Shown here piece after piece: positions 45,001 through 50,962 of a stretch of DNA of 64,000 nucleotides. Within the stretch, counting starts at the first letter, position 1. Each line of letters opens with the position of its first letter. The position numbers were made by a program. Origin of the DNA: an uncultured Verrucomicrobiae bacterium (GTDB lineage Bacteria > Verrucomicrobiota > Verrucomicrobiia > Limisphaerales > Palsa-1400); the NCBI GenBank assembly GCA_963707025.1, contig CAVPOM010000008.1, positions 32,001 through 96,000 of the forward strand, read 5' to 3'.

Positions 45001-48000
45001 ATGAACGTCACCCGCCAACACCACGACATCCGCGTCGGTCACGGGGATTTTGACTGCTCCGAATTCAAAGTGCAGATCGGCCAAAATGTGTAAACGCATA
45101 GGTAACTTTATGTTAGGTGAAAATTGGTTAGGAGTTCAAAGTGCGGGCGGAAGCTTCCGCCTCCGCCCGCGTTGTTCCTGGCGTCCTTGAACCGTTCGCT
45201 ATTCGCGAACAAAGTCCGCAATGACGGCTGGCACCGTCGTGTCGAAGCCGACCACGTCCAGCATGCCCGCGGTCGTTTGGGTCGGCGAGGGTGAAGCCGT
45301 TGGAGGTCATGCCCACAACGACCGCCTTCGCGTCGCCGACGAACTCGTCGCGATACTGGCGCAGGGCCTGGGCCGGATGGATGTTGCCCGCCCACGTCTC
45401 GCTGTCCGTATAGGTGATAAACGCCGACACGTTCAGCTTGTTGCGGGCGGCCCACACCATCGGCAGGGCGCAATCCGTGCCACCCATTGGGATGGCTTCG
45501 ATGCGCTTGATGACGTCGGCCAATCTCATGCGCGGCGAGAGGTTCACACGGGTGATGCCCGGTTCGCCGCCGCCGTGCATGCCACCGTAACCACCGCCCG
45601 CCGGAGCCGAGAACGCGATGATCTCGCATTCCGGTTCGGTTGCGGCCGTGATCAGTGCCATCGCCGCGCTGGCTTCGCGGGCCGAGATGCACGAACCCGC
45701 GATCATGGAACCATCCATCGAGCCGCTTACGTCAAGCGCGAGCAGCACCGGCTTGTTGCACGGTTCCACGTTCTGGAACGTCGCGTAAAACGCTTCGTCC
45801 AGCGCGTCCACCACCGCCGACACCGGCGACCACGCAAGCGAACCCTTGTCGCCGTGACCCTGGGCGTAGACCTTCTGCGCCACAAGGACCGCCAGCGGGT
45901 GGATGCGCGCACGCTTGAGCGCCATCTCGTCCTGCAGCTTGCGGACGATCAATCGCTTGGAGTCGCTGAACGGAGCCAGCAGACCGAGGCTCGTCATCTT
46001 GCCGAGGTTGCGGATCATCGCCGTCATCGGCATACGTTCCAGCAAGGCCTCCCACACAACGACTTCATTGAGCCACTGCGTTGGGATGGCTTCGCGCGGC
46101 AGGTCGAACTCGTTGATGATCTTCACGATCTCGTCCGCGCTCAATGCGCGCTTGGCCCGCTCGAAGGCTTCGATGAGCTTCGGCAGTGCGCCGACCGGGC
46201 CATACTTCGCGACACGGTCTTCACCGCGCACTCTGCGCTTCACTTCGCGTTCACCCAACGAATCCGCATGGGAAGCGGAACCTCCGCACAGCAACCAGCG
46301 GAACACCGATTCGTGCTGGGCCGACGGAGCCTTTGGGTGAGCAAGGCGAAGAAGGTCGCCGTGCGACCAACCGTCGCGTTGCTGGTACTTGACCGCCTGG
46401 TGCGCAAGATCATCGGCATCGCGGTAAACATACCAGTCGCCAACGGCGTTGCGCAGGCCACGGCCCCAGCCGCGCATGGCATTGACGTATTCGGCGAAGT
46501 GGAACAAGTGCGTGCCAATGCGGCAGACCTTGTTCAGGCTCGCAAACGCGAGCGCCTTCGCCTGGGCATCACCATGCGTGACGGCCAGCGCGAGGGCGAA
46601 GATGGCCGGATCGTTCTTGGGCGCGCGTCCGGCATCGCTGATCTCAACGATGCGGTTGACGGCACGGACTCCGTCGGCCCTGATGCAGCGGAGAATCGCC
46701 TCGTGGTTCTGCTTCACGAGATCGCGTTCCGCGATGTAATACGTGCCTCCTTCGGCGCCGAGGACGAGGAAACGGTCGAGCCGCGTCCAGTCATCCACTT
46801 CCCACGAGAAGCCGCCGCCCGAATTGCGAACCTGGTTCGCGCCCGGGATCGGCTGCGACTGCGGGGTGATGCGGCGATTAAACTGACGTGCGTAATTGAT
46901 AGCCATGGTGGCCTCCTTCTTGTGAGCGTGCCGCCAACTTCCGGCACGGGTTTTCTATCGGTTAAACTGCGGACAAGTTGGTGAACGTGGGATGGTCATT
47001 CGTAGTGATAACCCATGTTCTTCGGCCCGCAGTCAATGGGCTTGCGATTATTCGCGGAAAAAAGTGATTCCTCAGAGCGCCGTCATATCGTCCGGAGCGG
47101 AGGCAGCATTTCTTAAAAGCTGCGTCCGGAGCCGCATGGGCAGAGGTCGTTCCGCCCCAGCTTTTCGCTGAGTTCCTTATTCCCGTGAACGAGGCGCACG
47201 CCGCGTTTGACGTTCGTTTCGGACGGGAAGCCCTTGCGGCGTTTGCTGGTGATTTCGAAACTGGCGTCTTCATGATCATGTGTGTTGTTTGCCATACGGC
47301 CTCCTCGTTTGAGTATTGCGGTTGAAACATCGTGGCCCGCGCCACGATGAGATAGCGGATGGGCAAGGGACGACCCGGGAATTGCTCTATCCACTGAGCT
47401 ACTCCTCGTTGCCGAGGAGACTGGATTCGAACCAATGACCGATAACCCGATGTCTTCGGCCCATCAAATTGAAAGCGGGCAAGAAAGCGACCGTGGAATT
47501 GCCCAGCGTGCTGCCTTTACACCACTGCGGAACGCTCCGCGGGACGGAATTGAACCGCCGCTGCCGGGTTATCGAGAACCCACAATTTACGGCCCGCTGA
47601 AAGGGACCGACGGATAAGAAACGAACTGGGAATTTACGTGCTCTACCCCTGAGCTACCCCGGCATTGGAGCCGGAGGCGGGACTCGAACCCGCAACCTCG
47701 TCGTTATCAGCGATAACCCAATCCTGCGACCCGTCGAAAAAGCCGCGACGGACAAAGAGCGATATGGGAAACAATCGGTCGCCCGATTGCGCGGGGTTCG
47801 AACCCGCTCATCCCGCAGTGCGGAACTTTTCCAGATAACCCATGATCAACGACCCGTCGGAAAAACTCGATGGACAAGTGCTGCCGCAGATAGGGATTCG
47901 CAAGCGGGAATCGAACCCGCGTCACCAAACTCACGTTCGGCGGCTCTCTCACGGTGAGCAACCACCCCTGTTGGAGCGATAACCTGCAACATTCGGCCCA

Positions 48001-50962
48001 TCGAAATTGGTCAGGAAGCCGGGATTTGCACCCGGACCGTCGCGTTCACAACGCGGAATGCTGCTGTTACACCACAATCCTGATTTGAAATGGAGCCCCT
48101 GGTCGGACTCGCACCGACGAATACGAGTTTACGAAACTCGCCCTGTGGCTGCTGAGGCACAGGGGCACAATGGTGTCCACGGCAGGAATCGCGCCTGCGA
48201 CCTCCACCTTCGCGCGGTGGCGCTCTGATCTAACTGAGCTACGCGGACAATTGGCATCCGTGATCGGACTTTCACCGATTAGGCCCGGCTTGAAAGACCG
48301 GCTGCTCGATCTGCTTTGCATTCACGGACAGGATGGCCGCTGGAGTCGGAATTGCGCCGACACTTCCTGTGCTTCAAGCAGGTGTGCAGACTGACTACAC
48401 CATCCAGCGGGCAAAGCGGTGCGCGGCAGCTTGGGTCAGCTACCTTGAAGGGCTGTCTAAGAAGCTTGAGCCTTGCGGGCTGCGGCTTGCATTTTGAACG
48501 AGCTGACCGATGTGGTTTGACAACTCGGCATCAACATCAGCAGGTAATTGGATTTTCGGTCCAATAAGGAACGTTTAGAGCGCTCCAGATTTTGACAGCG
48601 TGCTCCATCGGCGGCATTCCGCCACCACCGCGCACCTGAATCAGAACCGCTGGCGGAATCAAGGATTCACGCTGCGGGTGAAGTTGAACTCGTCCAGCGC
48701 ATCTTGCAGCGACTGAATTTCGGCGTTCAACTCGGTGACAAGTTTGTCCACGTCCACCTTGCCGAGCTGGGCGACATATTCGACCTCGTAGCTTGCATCG
48801 GCAAAACCGCGTCCTTCGTGGAAAACGCCGGCCTTGGTGTCCAGCGCGTTCAACGTGGTGGCCAGACCCTTGAGTTCCGCCAGCCGGAAAATCCGGTCGT
48901 AGATTTCCACGTTGGCGGCCGCGACGGCGGCCTTGACCTTGACCAATTCGTCGAGCTTAACGCGCAGGCGCGTCAAGACTTCGCGATTGTCGTAGTCGAA
49001 CTTCTGTTTAGTGGAACGGGAGTTTTGTTTGGTGAGCAGATCCTTCAACTGGGCGACTTCGCCGGCCAGTTGGTTTTTCATTTTAAGTGCTTTGGCGATT
49101 TTCATTGGATACCTTTCATTGGTTGCGTGTGTTTGATCGAATGAGTTGGTCGTCCCGGCAGGTAACGCTCCTGCTTCTTCCGGTTATCGACCGGAGGCTC
49201 TGCTTTTGAGCTACGAGACGGTGGTTAATTGAGGCTTCACGCCAAAACGATGCGCGGGGCGGAACACAAGATTGAGCTTCGTGGTCGGGCGGATTCGAAT
49301 GCCACGTTTTGGCTTGTAGCTTCGACGAAAAGGGCATTGACTTTGATGCCGCATTATGGGTTTCACGGGATTTCCTTTCGTTGAGGGTTAAAACTGGCGG
49401 ATGGTGTAGGGATCGCACCCACGCAGCCCGCAGGCTCACTCGGTTTTCAGGACCGGGGCATTACTTCTCTGCCAACCATCCGTACAAATTGGCTGCCAGA
49501 CTTGGACTCGCACCAAGACAAGCGGCTTAACAGGCCACCGTGCTACTTTGACACCACCTGGCAATGGCGCTGCCGGCAGGATTCTCACCTGCATCTATCC
49601 GCTTAGAAGACGGATGCCTGATTTGTTCGGCCACGGCAGCGTTGAAATGGTCGGAATGGCAGGATTTTCACCTGCGGCCTCCCGGTCCCAAGCCGGGTGC
49701 TCTAAAGACTGAGCTACATTCCGTGAAAAATGGCGGACCCGAAGGGAGTTGCACCCTCAACCCTCCCGCAGACAACGGGGCGCTCTGCTGATTGAGCTAC
49801 GGATCCGAAATGGTGGGAAGTGCTGGTAATGCTCCAGTCGTCGCTTCCGACATGTTTTGAGACGTCCGGGTTACGGCCGGATTGCCGGATCACTTCCCTG
49901 AGATTGGTAGCGGGGGTGGGAGTTGCGCCCACGGAGGCTGAGCTTATGGGGCTCGCCTGAATCTCATTCTCCCCGCAGTGAAATGGTGGAGTCGGTGGGT
50001 AGCGCGCCCACATCAACCTGCTTGCAGGGCAGGTGCATTGCTTGTCTGCCACGACCCCGGAAAATGGCAGGCTGCCTCCGTGCTGCCCGGAGTAAGCTGA
50101 GTTTTGGAGACTCGGCCGCGTGCTGACGCTCAGCCTGTGCATGAATGGTGCGGCTGCCGGGAGTTGCGCCCGGACTTCCTCCATGGCGAGGAGATATTCT
50201 GCTGCTTAAATCACAGCCGCGAAAGTAAAAGGGCCGGGAGCGTTCAGGCTCCCGGCCCATGCCATTTCAACAAAGAACAAACACCTCTTGGTGATCTATG
50301 CGATCCCAACCCGCGGTTTCACGGCGGCTGTTTCGGTGTTTAGGGGCACACCTCCTGCGAAGCCCTTGATATGTAAATCTAAAATTCGTCTCGCTCGTCT
50401 TGATGACGCTGTCTTCCGGTCATGGGCAGACCCCACCGGTGAGGCTTCTCTGCTCGTCCTCGCCAAATTCAAGTTGTCGCCAGAAGACATCACCTGGATG
50501 TCGCTTTGTTCTTGTTCACAGATTGTCCGTCTTTCGTCGTCACTCGTTCACATTCATGGTGTTCAGGAAAAATAAAAAACCCTGCTTGCATTTCGGCAAG
50601 CAGGGTGGAAAAAATTCTGTTTCGTTCGTTACCTGCTTGCCATGAGTCTATCCAACTTGACCTGTTGTTCCGACGCGGTCCTGGATAGGCTAAGGCTAAA
50701 CACACTACCCGGGTTATACCGGCTATGACGTGTCCCAATGGTCATTGGGGCCGTCGTAATCGGCCAACTCGTGGCTGATATGTTTAAGCAAGTTTTCATT
50801 GAACTTATGCGAAAGCTATCATGGCGTGTTCATGTCGTCAACTACTATTTGAAAATATTTTGAGATTTATTTATTTCTCTCGAATTCAAGTATCGGATTA
50901 GTTGATTTGAGATTCTGCGGCAGCGTCAATCGGGAATCAAATACCACTCGTGACTGCGATCA

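What a model noticed while it worked through the whole genome (the two positions that open the first line are those of the whole stretch)
45128..48004. Ro60 with four Y RNAs is embedded in the G55 tRNA arrays, here and in other phyla
The Ro60 (TROVE-vWA) gene g03285 and four Y-RNA-like genes upstream of it lie inside the tRNA array of the C8 island, and a Ro60 gene lies inside or within 3 kb of the homologous G55 array in 6 of 6 other Limisphaerales and in 3 of 5 arrays from other orders or phyla. I read Ro60-Y RNA as the dedicated partner of these arrays, for instance to check, trim or degrade the elbow-variant tRNAs or their long precursor, with rtcB (g03275) as repair arm. New would be a defined client set and genomic context for bacterial Ro60, whose substrates are largely unknown.
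Evidence so far: Gene order on C8: tRNAs, g03287, tRNAs, four RNA hits on the minus strand (YrlA RF02553 43.4 and 39.8 bits, Deinococcus Y RNA RF01053 38.8 bits, sbRNA RF01656 42.8 bits; E 4e-7 to 4e-4, three below gathering), g03286 (SEC-C, 60 aa), Ro60, Metallophos, tRNA-Cys. The tRNA-like parts of the Y RNAs keep canonical GGUUCGA T-loops and GG D-loops, unlike the neighbouring tRNAs. blastx: Ro60 75-92% identical inside or beside the array in L044-L049 (6 of 6), array HNH gene in 3 of 6 fetched stretches. TROVE PF05731 within 1.2 kb (a Steroidobacteraceae genome), adjacent (Nibricoccus) or embedded (Opitutus) in 3 of 5 genomes reached from the pattern scan; none found in a Planctomycetota and an Aquiloni [...]
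(Added by a program. Inside this text positions count along the whole contig: contig position 32,001 is position 1 of the stretch shown here. "Call 12" and the like, gene names such as g00115 and contig names such as C1 are that model's own, and its searches are not shown. The text may have been shortened before it was handed on; [...] marks where a part breaks off. The agent that wrote the report below was given it as the finding of a first reader that could run no searches.)

Follow-up and report, generated by a model that had tools for sequence, protein, structure and literature searches.

The report
Ro60 and Y RNAs inside tRNA array
A gene for the RNA-surveillance protein Ro60 and six of its small partner RNAs sit as an optional insert inside a mobile cluster of odd spare tRNA genes, an arrangement that recurs in other bacteria and in phages and points to tRNA damage control rather than to a special link with the odd tRNAs.

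Summary
A Ro60 (TROVE+vWA) gene at 45128-46906(-) lies inside a minus-strand array of 18 tRNA genes. It is preceded by Y RNA genes, but there are six, not four.

All 25 well-folded array tRNAs of this genome have G55 T-loops. All Y-unit T-arms are canonical.

The linkage is real. In 53 of 60 close Ro60 loci, at least 2 tRNAs lie within 5 kb.

The "dedicated partner of elbow-variant tRNAs" reading is only partly supported:
- 16 of 20 genomes with a homologous array but no Ro60 relative have no TROVE gene at all.
- This genome has a collinear second array lacking exactly the His/Y/Ro60 block.
- An RNA-library contig joins across the cassette.
- Ro60 relatives of 51-61% identity sit in or beside arrays of canonical tRNAs in Chloroflexota.
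- Ro-like genes lie inside or next to tRNA arrays in Streptomyces and Gordonia phages.

RtcB genes are separate optional residents of these arrays.

Best reading: an optional Ro60/Y RNA cassette of mobile long tRNA arrays, made with the tRNAs, serving RNA-damage handling.

The scan noted Ro60 beside tRNA arrays before, in planctomycetes and giant phages. I found no paper stating this link.

This copy has a +1 frameshift near its 3' end.

The parts
49150..50220 (-). Upstream tRNA block of the array: 7 tRNA genes (50149-50220, Asp 49731-49806, Pro 49648-49723, Arg 49565-49640, Asn 49490-49563, Ser 49395-49481, 49150-49220), with spacers of about 1-9 nt within runs.
   Evidence: ARAGORN and Rfam tRNA hits. 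T-loops are of the G55 type.
48659..49105 (-).
   Evidence: No Pfam or PHROG family. Weak NCBIfam DIP1984 match, 23 bits against a cut-off of 70. Relatives found in 3 of 36 related loci.
48008..48409 (-). tRNA block directly upstream of the Y RNAs: 48337-48409 (found by Rfam only), Arg 48171-48248, Thr 48091-48166, His 48008-48082.
47867..48004 (-). Y1: a Y RNA whose insert is in D-arm, anticodon-like arm, T-arm order. It begins 3 nt after tRNA-His.
   Evidence: Rfam Deinococcus_Y_RNA 38.8 bits, E 4e-5, below the gathering score of 80. Fold. Terminal stem and T-arm covary.
47745..47860 (-).
   Evidence: Motif and fold. Orthologues in related loci align. Weak RF01656 match, 20.2 bits.
47607..47737 (-). 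Y3: a YrlA-like Y RNA with T-arm, acceptor-like hairpin and D-arm carrying GG.
   Evidence: Rfam YrlA 43.4 bits, E 4.5e-8, below the gathering score of 69. Alignment of 16 orthologues: 34 pairs, 7 with compensatory changes.
47474..47600 (-).
   Evidence: Motif and fold. Aligned with orthologues.
47356..47467 (-). Y5: a YrlA-like Y RNA.
   Evidence: Rfam YrlA 39.8 bits. Fold.
47113..47295 (-). Small ORF of 60 aa ending CPCGSGRSF (half of a SEC-C motif), lying between Y5 and Y6.
   Evidence: Pfam SEC-C 25.7 bits, positions 1-13 of 19. The same ending and stop are kept in relatives. Relatives in 9 of 20 Ro60-bearing and 2 of 16 Ro60-less loci.
46966..47033 (-). Y6: a minimal Y RNA of 68 nt, with no tRNA-like part, directly 5' of Ro60.
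   Evidence: RF01656 (nematode stem-bulge RNA) 42.8 bits, above the gathering score of 38. Alignment of 15 orthologues: 16 pairs, 7 with compensatory changes.
45128..46906 (-). Ro60/Rsr gene. The frame shifts at about 45265-45269. In the conserved frame the stop codon is at 45199-45201.
   Evidence: Pfam TROVE and vWA_Ro60. PDB matches: Xenopus Ro60 407 bits, human RO60 403 bits, D. radiodurans Rsr 346 bits. Frameshift: (table 4).
44353..45099 (-). Metallophosphoesterase gene, an insertion specific to this array copy.
   Evidence: Pfam Metallophos 2e-14. Relatives in 0 of 36 related loci. Absent from the C2 paralogue. An RNA-library contig joins 44346 to 45144.
44273..44347 (-). tRNA-Cys (GCA), the downstream flank of the cassette slot.
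40282..42209 (-). Distal tRNA blocks: 40282-40353, 40392-40462, Gln 40468-40542, 41873-41953, 42045-42125, and 42133-42209 with a four-base anticodon. A Kinase-PolyVal ORF (40838-41602, + strand) lies between them.
33426..34985 (-).
   Evidence: Pfam RtcB 4.8e-85. Only copy in the genome. An 82% identical orthologue lies next to Ro60 in L044.

Best explanation
The finding is a discrete cassette of about 2.9 kb. It holds five tRNA-like Y RNAs, a 60-aa SEC-C-like ORF, a minimal Y RNA and Ro60. It is inserted at a fixed slot, between tRNA-His and tRNA-Cys, of a horizontally spread long tRNA array.

The cassette is optional cargo. The arrays exist with and without it.

Shown:
- The Y RNA genes are laid out like array members: same strand, spacers of 5-8 nt, and the first begins 3 nt after tRNA-His.

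Inferred:
- The Y RNAs are transcribed and cut out together with the tRNAs.
- The Ro60-Y RNA particle, with a host 3'-5' exonuclease such as PNPase, is the decay and surveillance arm of a mobile 'spare translation kit'. The other parts are spare tRNAs and, in many copies, an RtcB ligase.
- The kit is used when tRNAs or rRNAs are broken or misfolded by ribotoxins, anticodon nucleases, phage defence or translational stress.

The cassette is not specialised for the G55 elbow variant. Related cassettes accompany arrays of canonical tRNAs in Chloroflexota and in actinophages.
For: Identity of the parts
- Ro60 domains.
- Six Y units: covarying terminal stem (5 of 7 pairs with compensatory changes) and a canonical T-arm (3 stem pairs with 13-22 double changes) across 41 units. 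Class alignments.
- Six motif hits lie within 1.04 kb, against 131 elsewhere in 6.96 Mb.

Fixed slot and conservation
- 18 of 20 order loci carry G55 tRNAs beside Ro60.
- 53 of 60 loci with Ro60 at 65% identity or more have at least 2 tRNAs within 5 kb; 34 of 60 have them on both sides.

Optional cargo
- 16 of 20 genomes with the array but no Ro60 relative lack TROVE.
- The slot is empty on one contig in L054, L055, L057, L058, L060, L062 and L065.
- The C2 paralogue lacks window 45174-48084.
- A contig joins 45176 to 48001.

Arrival with the array
- TROVE is found in 0 of 300 other genomes of the phylum, against 29 of 201 in the order.

Recurrence elsewhere
- 8 of 18 loci with Ro60 at 47-61% identity have at least 2 tRNAs within 5 kb, none of them G55.
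- Phage Bmoc has Ro embedded in its array. Phage Mareelih has Ro 194 nt from an array of 31 annotated tRNAs plus a tmRNA.
- On the Ro60 tree the array label needs 8 changes, at least 5 of them forced by well-supported branches.

RNA-repair theme
- RtcB is confirmed in 14 ORFs of related loci; 9 of them lie inside the array between tRNA-Phe and Arg/Thr/His.
- Cyanobacterial long arrays are co-regulated with rtcB under translational stress (PMC8421152, passages).
- The rsr-yrlBA-rtcBA operon is induced by tRNA halves (PMC7790460, passages).

Expression
- Contigs from RNA libraries of four studies cover Y6 to Y5, Y5 to Y4 and the Y1/tRNA-His junction.
Against: - No experiment or raw-read data shows co-transcription, processing or any Ro60 client. 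Contigs carry no strand, and DNA may be present in RNA libraries.
- Unrelated cassettes also sit between the tRNAs: Metallophos, a Sir2/CobB-like gene, a kinase, ORF 48659-49105 and an Upx fusion. The arrays may simply collect cargo.
- Many Ro60 genes have no array nearby: 10 of 18 divergent loci, 0 of 6 in an unbiased Chloroflexota sample, and 4 of 8 phage lineages without a tRNA within 5-6 kb.
- This copy of Ro60 is frameshifted near its 3' end and loses the conserved last 22 residues.
- No sigma-70-like promoter was found in 44000-50600.
Confidence: 0.55

Rival explanations
1. Ro60-Y RNA is the dedicated partner of the G55 (elbow-variant) tRNAs or of their long precursor. It checks, trims or degrades them, with RtcB as the repair arm.
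For: - In the Verrucomicrobiota clade Ro60 occurs only with G55 arrays: 525 G55, 18 canonical and 2 other tRNAs around 60 loci.
- The slot and orientation are conserved.
- TROVE was found in 0 of 300 other sampled genomes of the phylum.
- Odd elbows could make these tRNAs prone to misfolding, which is what Ro60 binds in animals (established knowledge, recalled).
Against: - Arrays persist with intact G55 tRNAs in genomes without any TROVE gene, 16 of 20.
- This genome has three arrays and one Ro60.
- Related Ro60 genes accompany arrays of canonical tRNAs in Chloroflexota and in phages.
- The tRNA-like parts of the Y RNAs keep canonical T-loops and do not copy the variant.
Confidence: 0.12
2. 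Co-location serves Y RNA biogenesis only. Because Y RNAs are tRNA-like, their genes use the array's promoter and the tRNA-processing enzymes (RNase P, RNase Z). Ro60 simply stays next to its Y RNAs. The particle's clients have nothing to do with the array's tRNAs.
For: - Spacers of 5-8 nt between Y units resemble the tRNA spacers, and Y1 begins 3 nt after tRNA-His.
- In phage Bmoc a Y-type motif starts 6 nt after tRNA-Asp.
- YrlA RNAs are substrates of enzymes that recognise tRNA (PMC4201824, abstract).
- A contig from an RNA library bridges Y1 and tRNA-His.
Against: - Most Ro60-Y RNA loci work without any array: 0 of 6 in the Chloroflexota sample; the Salmonella operon.
- It does not explain why RtcB is also a frequent resident of the arrays.
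Confidence: 0.18
3. Pure hitch-hiking. Long tRNA arrays are hot spots where mobile cassettes of any kind land, and Ro60-Y RNA is one of many passengers with no functional tie to the tRNAs.
For: - The arrays are mosaics: Metallophos, a Sir2/CobB-like gene, Kinase-PolyVal, ORF 48659-49105 and an Upx fusion sit between or beside the tRNA blocks and vary between copies.
- The cassette shows clean presence/absence polymorphism.
Against: - Ro60 recurs with arrays in separate Ro60 lineages and hosts: Verrucomicrobiota, the Chloroflexia clade, an Ardenticatenaceae genome, and Streptomyces and Gordonia phages. On the tree the label needs at least 5 changes forced by well-supported branches.
- The co-resident genes that recur are RNA-related (RtcB in 14 ORFs), as reported for cyanobacterial long arrays (PMC8421152).
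Confidence: 0.15

Closest known systems
rsr-yrlBA-rtcBA RNA repair operon of Salmonella Typhimurium (Chen et al. 2013; Hughes et al. 2020, PMC7790460)
   Same: Ro60 with tandem Y RNAs on the same strand, at least one of them a tRNA mimic. There is an RtcB in the same island and a thematic link to damaged tRNAs.
   Different: - RtcA and RtcR were not found in this genome.
- RtcB is 10 kb away, not in an operon with rsr.
- There are six Y RNAs.
- The module lies inside a tRNA array and is apparently fed by the array's transcription.
[quoted passage not shown] PCC 7120 (Santamaria-Gomez et al. 2021, PMC8421152)
   Same: A supernumerary, patchily distributed array of tightly spaced tRNA genes. RNA-processing genes, including rtcB, lie in the neighbourhood. 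Verrucomicrobia is listed among the phyla with such arrays.
   Different: - That paper's main text has no TROVE, Rsr, Ro60 or Y RNA term; its supplements were not read.
- Here the array tRNAs carry G55 and lack G18G19.
- Here a Ro60-Y RNA cassette sits inside the array.
Actinophage Ro-like proteins with YrlA RNAs (Chen et al. 2014, PMC4201824; GenBank records of phages Bmoc, Mareelih, LinStu)
   Same: - The same Ro60 subfamily, 36-47% identical.
- The same 5' Y RNA motif in several phages.
- The Ro gene is embedded in the phage tRNA array (Bmoc) or lies 194 nt from it (Mareelih).
   Different: - The phage tRNAs have canonical T-loops.
- The setting is a lytic or temperate phage genome, not a chromosomal island.
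- Four of eight phage lineages examined have no tRNA within 5-6 kb of the Ro gene.
RYPER, the Rsr-Y RNA-PNPase machine of Deinococcus radiodurans (Chen et al. 2013), and its phage phiLo counterpart (PMC12135203)
   Same: It offers a likely working mode: the Y RNA tethers ring-shaped Ro60 to a 3'-5' exonuclease for decay of structured RNA.
   Different: - No binding data exist here.
- The window's Ro60 scores higher against Xenopus and human Ro60 (407 and 403 bits) than against D. radiodurans Rsr (346 bits).

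Membership tests
Ro60 / Rsr (TROVE family) | TROVE (HEAT-repeat ring) domain followed by a vWA domain | tested here: met
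   Pfam TROVE 1e-47 (residues 27-344) and vWA_Ro60 1.9e-49 (387-547). Full-length match to solved Ro60 structures, E 1e-120.
Ro60 / Rsr (TROVE family) | MIDAS motif (DxSxS) in the vWA domain | tested here: met
   The translation reads LALDVSGSM. It aligns with the Xenopus motif region in the alignment. The motif definition itself is recalled.
Ro60 / Rsr (TROVE family) | Intact reading frame to the conserved C-terminus | tested here: not met
   The window diverges from all relatives after ...ADPNDRG. The conserved ending is in another frame, with its stop at 45199-45201. Contigs of three runs lack one base at 45265-45269. This is either a real frameshift or an assembly error.
Ro60 / Rsr (TROVE family) | NCBIfam equivalog Rsr cut-off | tested here: not met
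   NF041674 scores 463.9 bits against a cut-off of 900, although aligned over residues 6-547. It is a relative of that model's family, not an equivalog.
Bacterial Y RNA / YrlA (RF02553) | Encoded within 4 kb of Ro60 on the same strand (criterion of Chen et al. 2014) | tested here: met
   All six units lie 60-1100 nt upstream of Ro60 on the minus strand.
Bacterial Y RNA / YrlA (RF02553) | Terminal stem formed by the 5' and 3' ends, with the GNCGAAN0-1G motif (the Ro60-binding site) | tested here: met
   The stem covaries across 41 units. The exact motif is present in Y1, Y5 and Y6 (GGGCCGAA). Y2-Y4 carry variants (GGGTCGTT, GGGTCGCA, GGGCCGTA).
Bacterial Y RNA / YrlA (RF02553) | tRNA-like domain with T-arm and D-arm | tested here: met
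   Y3, Y4 and Y5 have a T-arm, an acceptor-like hairpin and a D-arm. Y1 and Y2 have a T-arm with other arms. Y6 has none.
Bacterial Y RNA / YrlA (RF02553) | Rfam gathering score | tested here: not met
   43.4 and 39.8 bits against 69. Only Y6 passes a gathering score, and that of the nematode sbRNA family RF01656 (42.8 against 38).
Bacterial Y RNA / YrlA (RF02553) | Bound by Ro60 | not testable with these tools
   This needs immunoprecipitation or gel shifts.
Long tRNA arrays (L-arrays) | Many tightly spaced supernumerary tRNA genes on one strand | tested here: met
   18 minus-strand tRNA genes lie between 40282 and 50220. The genome has two further arrays and a separate canonical tRNA set.
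Long tRNA arrays (L-arrays) | Patchy distribution consistent with horizontal spread | tested here: met
   The array segment is found strongly in 35 of 201 genomes scattered over many families of the order. Ro60 is 65-92% identical across them.
Long tRNA arrays (L-arrays) | Induction under translational stress | not testable with these tools
   Only contigs of metatranscriptome libraries are available.
rsr-yrlBA-rtcBA operon | rsr contiguous with rtcB/rtcA and a divergent rtcR | tested here: not met
   RtcR and RtcA were not found in the genome, which is 88% complete. RtcB lies at 33426-34985, separated from Ro60 by tRNAs and the Upx fusion.

The most novel reading that the evidence does not exclude
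Ro60-Y RNA and RtcB are the decay arm and the repair arm of a mobile 'spare translation kit' built around long tRNA arrays. The kit has been assembled repeatedly in bacteria and large phages. Y RNAs are produced as members of the array. The kit lets its carrier, cell or phage, ride out attacks by tRNA- or rRNA-cutting nucleases. In the G55 arrays the canonical-elbow Y RNAs could act as decoys for an elbow-reading enzyme that the variant tRNAs escape.
Probability: 0.3. Interest if true: 0.8.

Novelty: new variant of a known kind. Interest (0 to 1): 0.6.

Why it matters
Bacterial Ro60 has no defined client set. Hughes et al. (PMC7790460) could only suggest tRNA decay, or decoy action of the Y RNA against an anticodon nuclease.

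A recurrent physical union of Ro60-Y RNA with long tRNA arrays, and with RtcB, gives that idea an independent genomic footing. The union is seen in bacteria of at least two phyla and in actinophages.

It also offers natural with-and-without pairs, even within one genome, that make the idea directly testable.

Finally, it adds a protein-RNA module to the debate on whether mobile tRNA arrays are back-up translation sets or counter-defence devices.

Tried and rejected
- Classifying T-loops by a fixed offset from the 3' end mislabelled tRNAs without an encoded CCA as G55. One example is the Ardenticatenaceae locus L121. I redid the classification by structure and use only those counts.
- I suspected that the small SEC-C ORF was frameshifted. 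Relatives keep the same ending and stop, so it is native.
- The consensus sigma-70 promoter scan found nothing in 44000-50600. Nine terminator-like sites is about the number expected from shuffles (7.5).
- Parts of the stretch without cover in the RNA-library contigs are not interpreted.
- The region 48410-48660 has relatives only in L048 and L093. I did not pursue a leader or attenuator reading.
- Two reviews by Sim and Wolin (PMC10870794, PMC6047535) are not held. A statement of the array link there cannot be excluded.
I obtained a genome handle first and then ran the search.

Full report
WHAT IS THERE

The coordinates of the finding are window coordinates.

The ORF 45128..46906 on the minus strand (592 aa) carries Pfam TROVE (1e-47) and the Ro60 vWA domain (1.9e-49). 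It matches PHROG 850 'RNA-binding protein' (1e-74). It matches NCBIfam Rsr over residues 6-547, but at 463.9 bits, below that model's cut-off of 900. Among solved structures it scores 407 bits against Xenopus Ro60, 403 against human RO60 and 346 against Deinococcus Rsr. It is the only TROVE gene in the 6.96-Mb assembly.

Three are below their gathering scores.

Around the gene, 18 tRNA genes lie on the same strand between 40282 and 50220. ARAGORN finds 11 and Rfam adds 7.

SIX Y RNAs, NOT FOUR

The sequence upstream of Ro60 holds six units. Each begins with a GGG(C/U)CG...GGGUUAUC motif and ends with a CUU(G/A)(U/C)CC strand that pairs with its 5' end.
- Y1: 47867-48004
- Y2: 47745-47860
- Y3: 47607-47737
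- Y4: 47474-47600
- Y5: 47356-47467
- Y6: 46966-47033

The loose motif hits six times in 1.04 kb here and 131 times in the rest of the genome.

In 23 related loci I found 84 such units, which fall into orthologous classes.

An alignment of 41 tRNA-like units gives two conserved helices:
- a 7-bp terminal stem in which 5 pairs show compensatory changes;
- a T-arm hairpin with a canonical GGUUCRA loop, whose stem has 13-22 double changes at three pairs.

The Y3 class (16 sequences) folds as a YrlA-type RNA with T-arm, acceptor-like hairpin and a D-arm carrying GG. The minimal Y6 class (15 sequences) keeps 16 pairs, 7 of them with compensatory changes.

The exact GNCGAAN0-1G motif of Chen et al. 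(PMC4201824; section 5 and passages read) is present in Y1, Y5 and Y6. Y2-Y4 carry variants.

The units are separated by 5-8 nt, and Y1 starts 3 nt after tRNA-His.

Between Y5 and Y6 lies a 60-aa ORF ending CPCGSGRSF. Relatives keep the same ending and stop.

THE ARRAY tRNAs

With a structure-based reading of the T-loop, 25 of 25 well-folded tRNAs in the genome's three arrays (C2, C4, C8) have G at position 55. Only 2 of 25 have GG in the D-loop. Of the other tRNAs, 45 of 49 read TTC and 46 of 49 have GG.

The contrast with the canonical T-loops of the Y RNAs is therefore real. The Y1-type D-like arm, however, lacks GG.

HOW TIGHT IS THE LINKAGE?

In a sample of 201 genomes of the order, 29 have a relative of this Ro60, spread over many families at 65-86% identity.

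Of 20 loci fetched, 18 show G55 tRNAs beside Ro60. The other two are contigs under 3.4 kb.

A scan of one genome per species gave 80 loci, which partly overlap those genomes. Among the 60 loci with at least 65% identity:
- 53 have at least 2 tRNAs within 5 kb;
- 34 have tRNAs on both sides;
- the tRNAs are 525 G55, 18 canonical and 2 other.

Several of the 'canonical' calls fall inside Y units, as seen.

The gene order is conserved: ...Asp-Pro-Asn...Phe-Arg/Thr/His, then Y RNAs, Ro60, Cys, Arg(tcg), Leu...

TROVE was found in 0 of 300 other sampled genomes of the phylum. In this phylum Ro60 therefore appears to come with the array.

THE CASSETTE IS OPTIONAL

A 412-nt array segment finds strong matches (E at or below 1e-20) in 35 of the same 201 genomes. 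Of these, 15 have the Ro60 relative and 20 do not.

In those 20, a Pfam TROVE search finds nothing in 16 and only weak partial hits in 4. Their completeness is 61-97%, so absence is not proven for each.

All 16 loci fetched from them carry G55 arrays of 4-18 tRNAs in the same order. In 13 of 16 there is no Y motif.

In L054, L055, L057, L058, L060, L062 and L065 both slot flanks (His and Cys) lie on one contig with no Ro60.

Two loci are special cases:
- L067 has Y units and ends 86 nt after a Y6-type unit. Its Ro60 may lie beyond the contig end.
- L063 has two Y units and a 23%-identical Ro-like ORF 8 kb away.

Within this genome, the C2 array is a collinear paralogue. It lacks window 45174-48084 (tRNA-His, Y1-Y6, the small ORF and Ro60) and also lacks the Metallophos gene.

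A contig in an RNA library joins 45176 to 48001, and another joins 44346 to 45144. No relative of Metallophos was found in the 36 related loci.

THE LINK IS NOT SPECIFIC TO G55 tRNAs

Eighteen loci from other phyla hold Ro60 relatives of 47-61% identity. Eight of them have at least 2 tRNAs within 5 kb: L121 13, L131 4, L134 15, L135 7, L136 22, L138 2, L139 2 and L144 3. These tRNAs are 66 canonical, 0 G55 and 2 other. Ten loci have at most one tRNA.

An earlier count of mine that called L121 a G55 array was an artefact and is withdrawn.

In phages, 354 records encode a relative, the best at 47% identity. I looked at eight lineages:
- Streptomyces phage Bmoc: the Ro-like gene is inside the tRNA array.
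- Gordonia phage Mareelih: 194 nt before an array of 31 annotated tRNAs plus a tmRNA.
- LinStu: two tRNAs 2.8 kb upstream.
- A Microbacterium phage: three tRNAs 4.5 kb upstream.
- Myrna, BearBQ, prophiT37-1 and Atu_ph07: none within 5-6 kb.

The phage tRNAs are canonical.

The GGGCCG...GGUUAUC motif precedes Ro60 in Chloroflexota, Armatimonadaceae and several phages. In Bmoc it starts 6 nt after tRNA-Asp.

On a tree of 43 Ro60 proteins, built with the quick method and without the mixture model, three groups stand apart:
- the Verrucomicrobiota array clade: 17 rows, all with an array;
- a Chloroflexia clade: 6 of 7 with an array;
- the actinophages.

The 'array' label needs 8 changes, at least 5 of them forced by starred branches.

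Conversely, an unbiased sample of 300 Chloroflexota genomes yielded 6 further TROVE genes, none in an array.

The association is therefore recurrent and lineage-specific, not universal.

RtcB

The window's RtcB (33426-34985, Pfam 4.8e-85) is the only RtcB in the genome. RtcA and RtcR were not found.

It lies at the array border, behind a 1517-aa ORF. Residues 47-272 of that ORF are a domain conserved at the Gln end of arrays, seen in 15 of 36 loci and beside the C2 array. The rest matches the anti-phage protein Upx (PADLOC 1e-150).

In L044 an 82% identical orthologue lies next to Ro60.

A different RtcB type sits inside the arrays between tRNA-Phe and Arg/Thr/His in 9 loci, both with and without Ro60. 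All 14 ORFs tested are Pfam RtcB.

EXPRESSION

Six metatranscriptome runs hold 24-29% of the sampled words. Contigs of four of them, from four studies, cover several parts of the stretch:
- 46964-47425 (Y6 to Y5);
- 47275-47635 (Y5 to Y4);
- 47940-48057 (the Y1/tRNA-His junction).

A related YrlA-like form reaches depth 226.

Contigs cannot show strand or ends, and DNA in the libraries cannot be excluded.

A FLAW IN THIS COPY

After ...ADPNDRG the window's Ro60 departs from all relatives. The conserved ending (MLDVVGFDT...FVRE) is in another frame, with its stop at 45199-45201. Contigs of three runs lack one base at 45265-45269. This is either a true frameshift or an assembly error.

READING

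The evidence fits an optional Ro60-Y RNA cassette of mobile long tRNA arrays. The cassette is produced with the tRNAs and serves RNA-damage handling together with spare tRNAs and RtcB.

This agrees with published work:
- Long arrays are horizontally spread, have RNA-processing neighbours, and are co-induced with rtcB under translational stress (PMC8421152; passages read).
- The rsr-yrlBA-rtcBA operon is switched on by tRNA halves, and its authors proposed tRNA decay or nuclease decoy roles for Rsr and YrlA (PMC7790460; passages read).

The steps from layout to co-transcription, and from neighbourhood to function, are inferred.

The rivals are a dedicated partner of the G55 tRNAs, biogenesis only, and pure hitch-hiking. 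They are weighed in their own sections.

NOVELTY

Full-text searches combining Ro60, TROVE, Rsr or Ro-like with tRNA array, cluster or island found no paper stating the link.

The long-array paper has none of these words in its main text; its supplements were not read. The M. avium array paper (PMC12803027) has none of the six terms I searched (Ro-like, RNA-binding, RtcB, ligase, Y RNA) except 'antidefense'. Two reviews by Sim and Wolin are not held.

Earlier notes of this scan report a spare tRNA array just upstream of Y RNAs and Ro60 in planctomycetes, and a tRNA array with Ro60 in giant phages. I did not test those loci. The one Pirellulales locus I saw has no array within 5 kb.

Rows of four to seven Y RNAs were also noted there as common, so the count of six is not unusual in itself.

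Noticed in passing
window 34951-39504 (-): A single 1517-aa ORF fuses two parts. Residues 47-272 form a roughly 230-aa domain that is conserved next to the Gln end of these tRNAs arrays, seen in 15 of 36 related loci and beside the own C2 array. The rest is a full-length match to the anti-phage protein Upx (PADLOC 1e-150; NCBIfam 550 bits, below the cut-off of 1900). The conserved array-end domain has no Pfam, PHROG or NCBIfam family.
   Followed up: partly
window 48252-48600: Contigs in two RNA libraries from different studies cover this stretch at very high depth (1844 and about 1490, against roughly 10-100 nearby). The stretch holds the tRNA at 48337-48409 and about 190 nt upstream of it. 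One contig ends in adapter sequence at 48600. The upstream part has relatives only in L048 and L093 and no Rfam match.
   Followed up: partly
window 46966-47033 (-), and all Y units: The minimal Y RNA passes the gathering score of a nematode stem-bulge RNA family (RF01656, 42.8 against 38) and shares long consensus words with it. The UUAUC motif, known from sbRNAs and vertebrate Y RNAs (PMC4726728), is near-invariant in these bacterial and phage Y units. The Ro60 protein also scores higher against frog and human Ro60 than against Deinococcus Rsr. Together this suggests that protein and RNA moved between domains of life as a pair.
   Followed up: partly
window 42133-42209 (-) and 48337-48409 (-): ARAGORN reads a four-base anticodon (tcga) in one array tRNA. 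Another tRNA, found by Rfam only, appears to have an enlarged anticodon loop around GAA.
   Followed up: no
related loci, e.g. L035:7384-7520, L046 about 2331, L043 about 6294: Some Y units carry a complete cloverleaf-like insert in normal order (D-arm, anticodon arm, T-arm). ARAGORN calls them tRNAs (Trp-CCA, Met-CAT, Leu-TAA), so annotation pipelines will list them as extra canonical tRNAs inside G55 arrays.
   Followed up: partly
window 25789-27708 (+) and 43184-44269 (+): A type IV restriction-like ResIII helicase with an HNH-repeat lies 12 kb from the array. A CobB-like Sir2 with a 118-aa N-terminal extension lies inside the array; it is 84% identical to a copy in the C2 array and has relatives in 5 of 20 Ro60-bearing loci. 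The array sits in a neighbourhood rich in defence genes.
   Followed up: no
window 32416-34985: RtcB lies next to a 137-aa RF-1-domain protein (ArfB-like, convergent strand) and a D-Tyr-tRNA deacylase. The RtcB has a weak match to the NCBIfam 'release_rtcB' model (114.7 bits against a cut-off of 271.8).
   Followed up: no
phage loci L151 (BearBQ) and L152 (prophiT37-1): In two temperate actinophages the Ro-like gene has no tRNAs nearby. Instead it lies beside the integrase and immunity repressor, or beside a BrnT-like toxin. This is the region where prophage-expressed genes usually sit.
   Followed up: no
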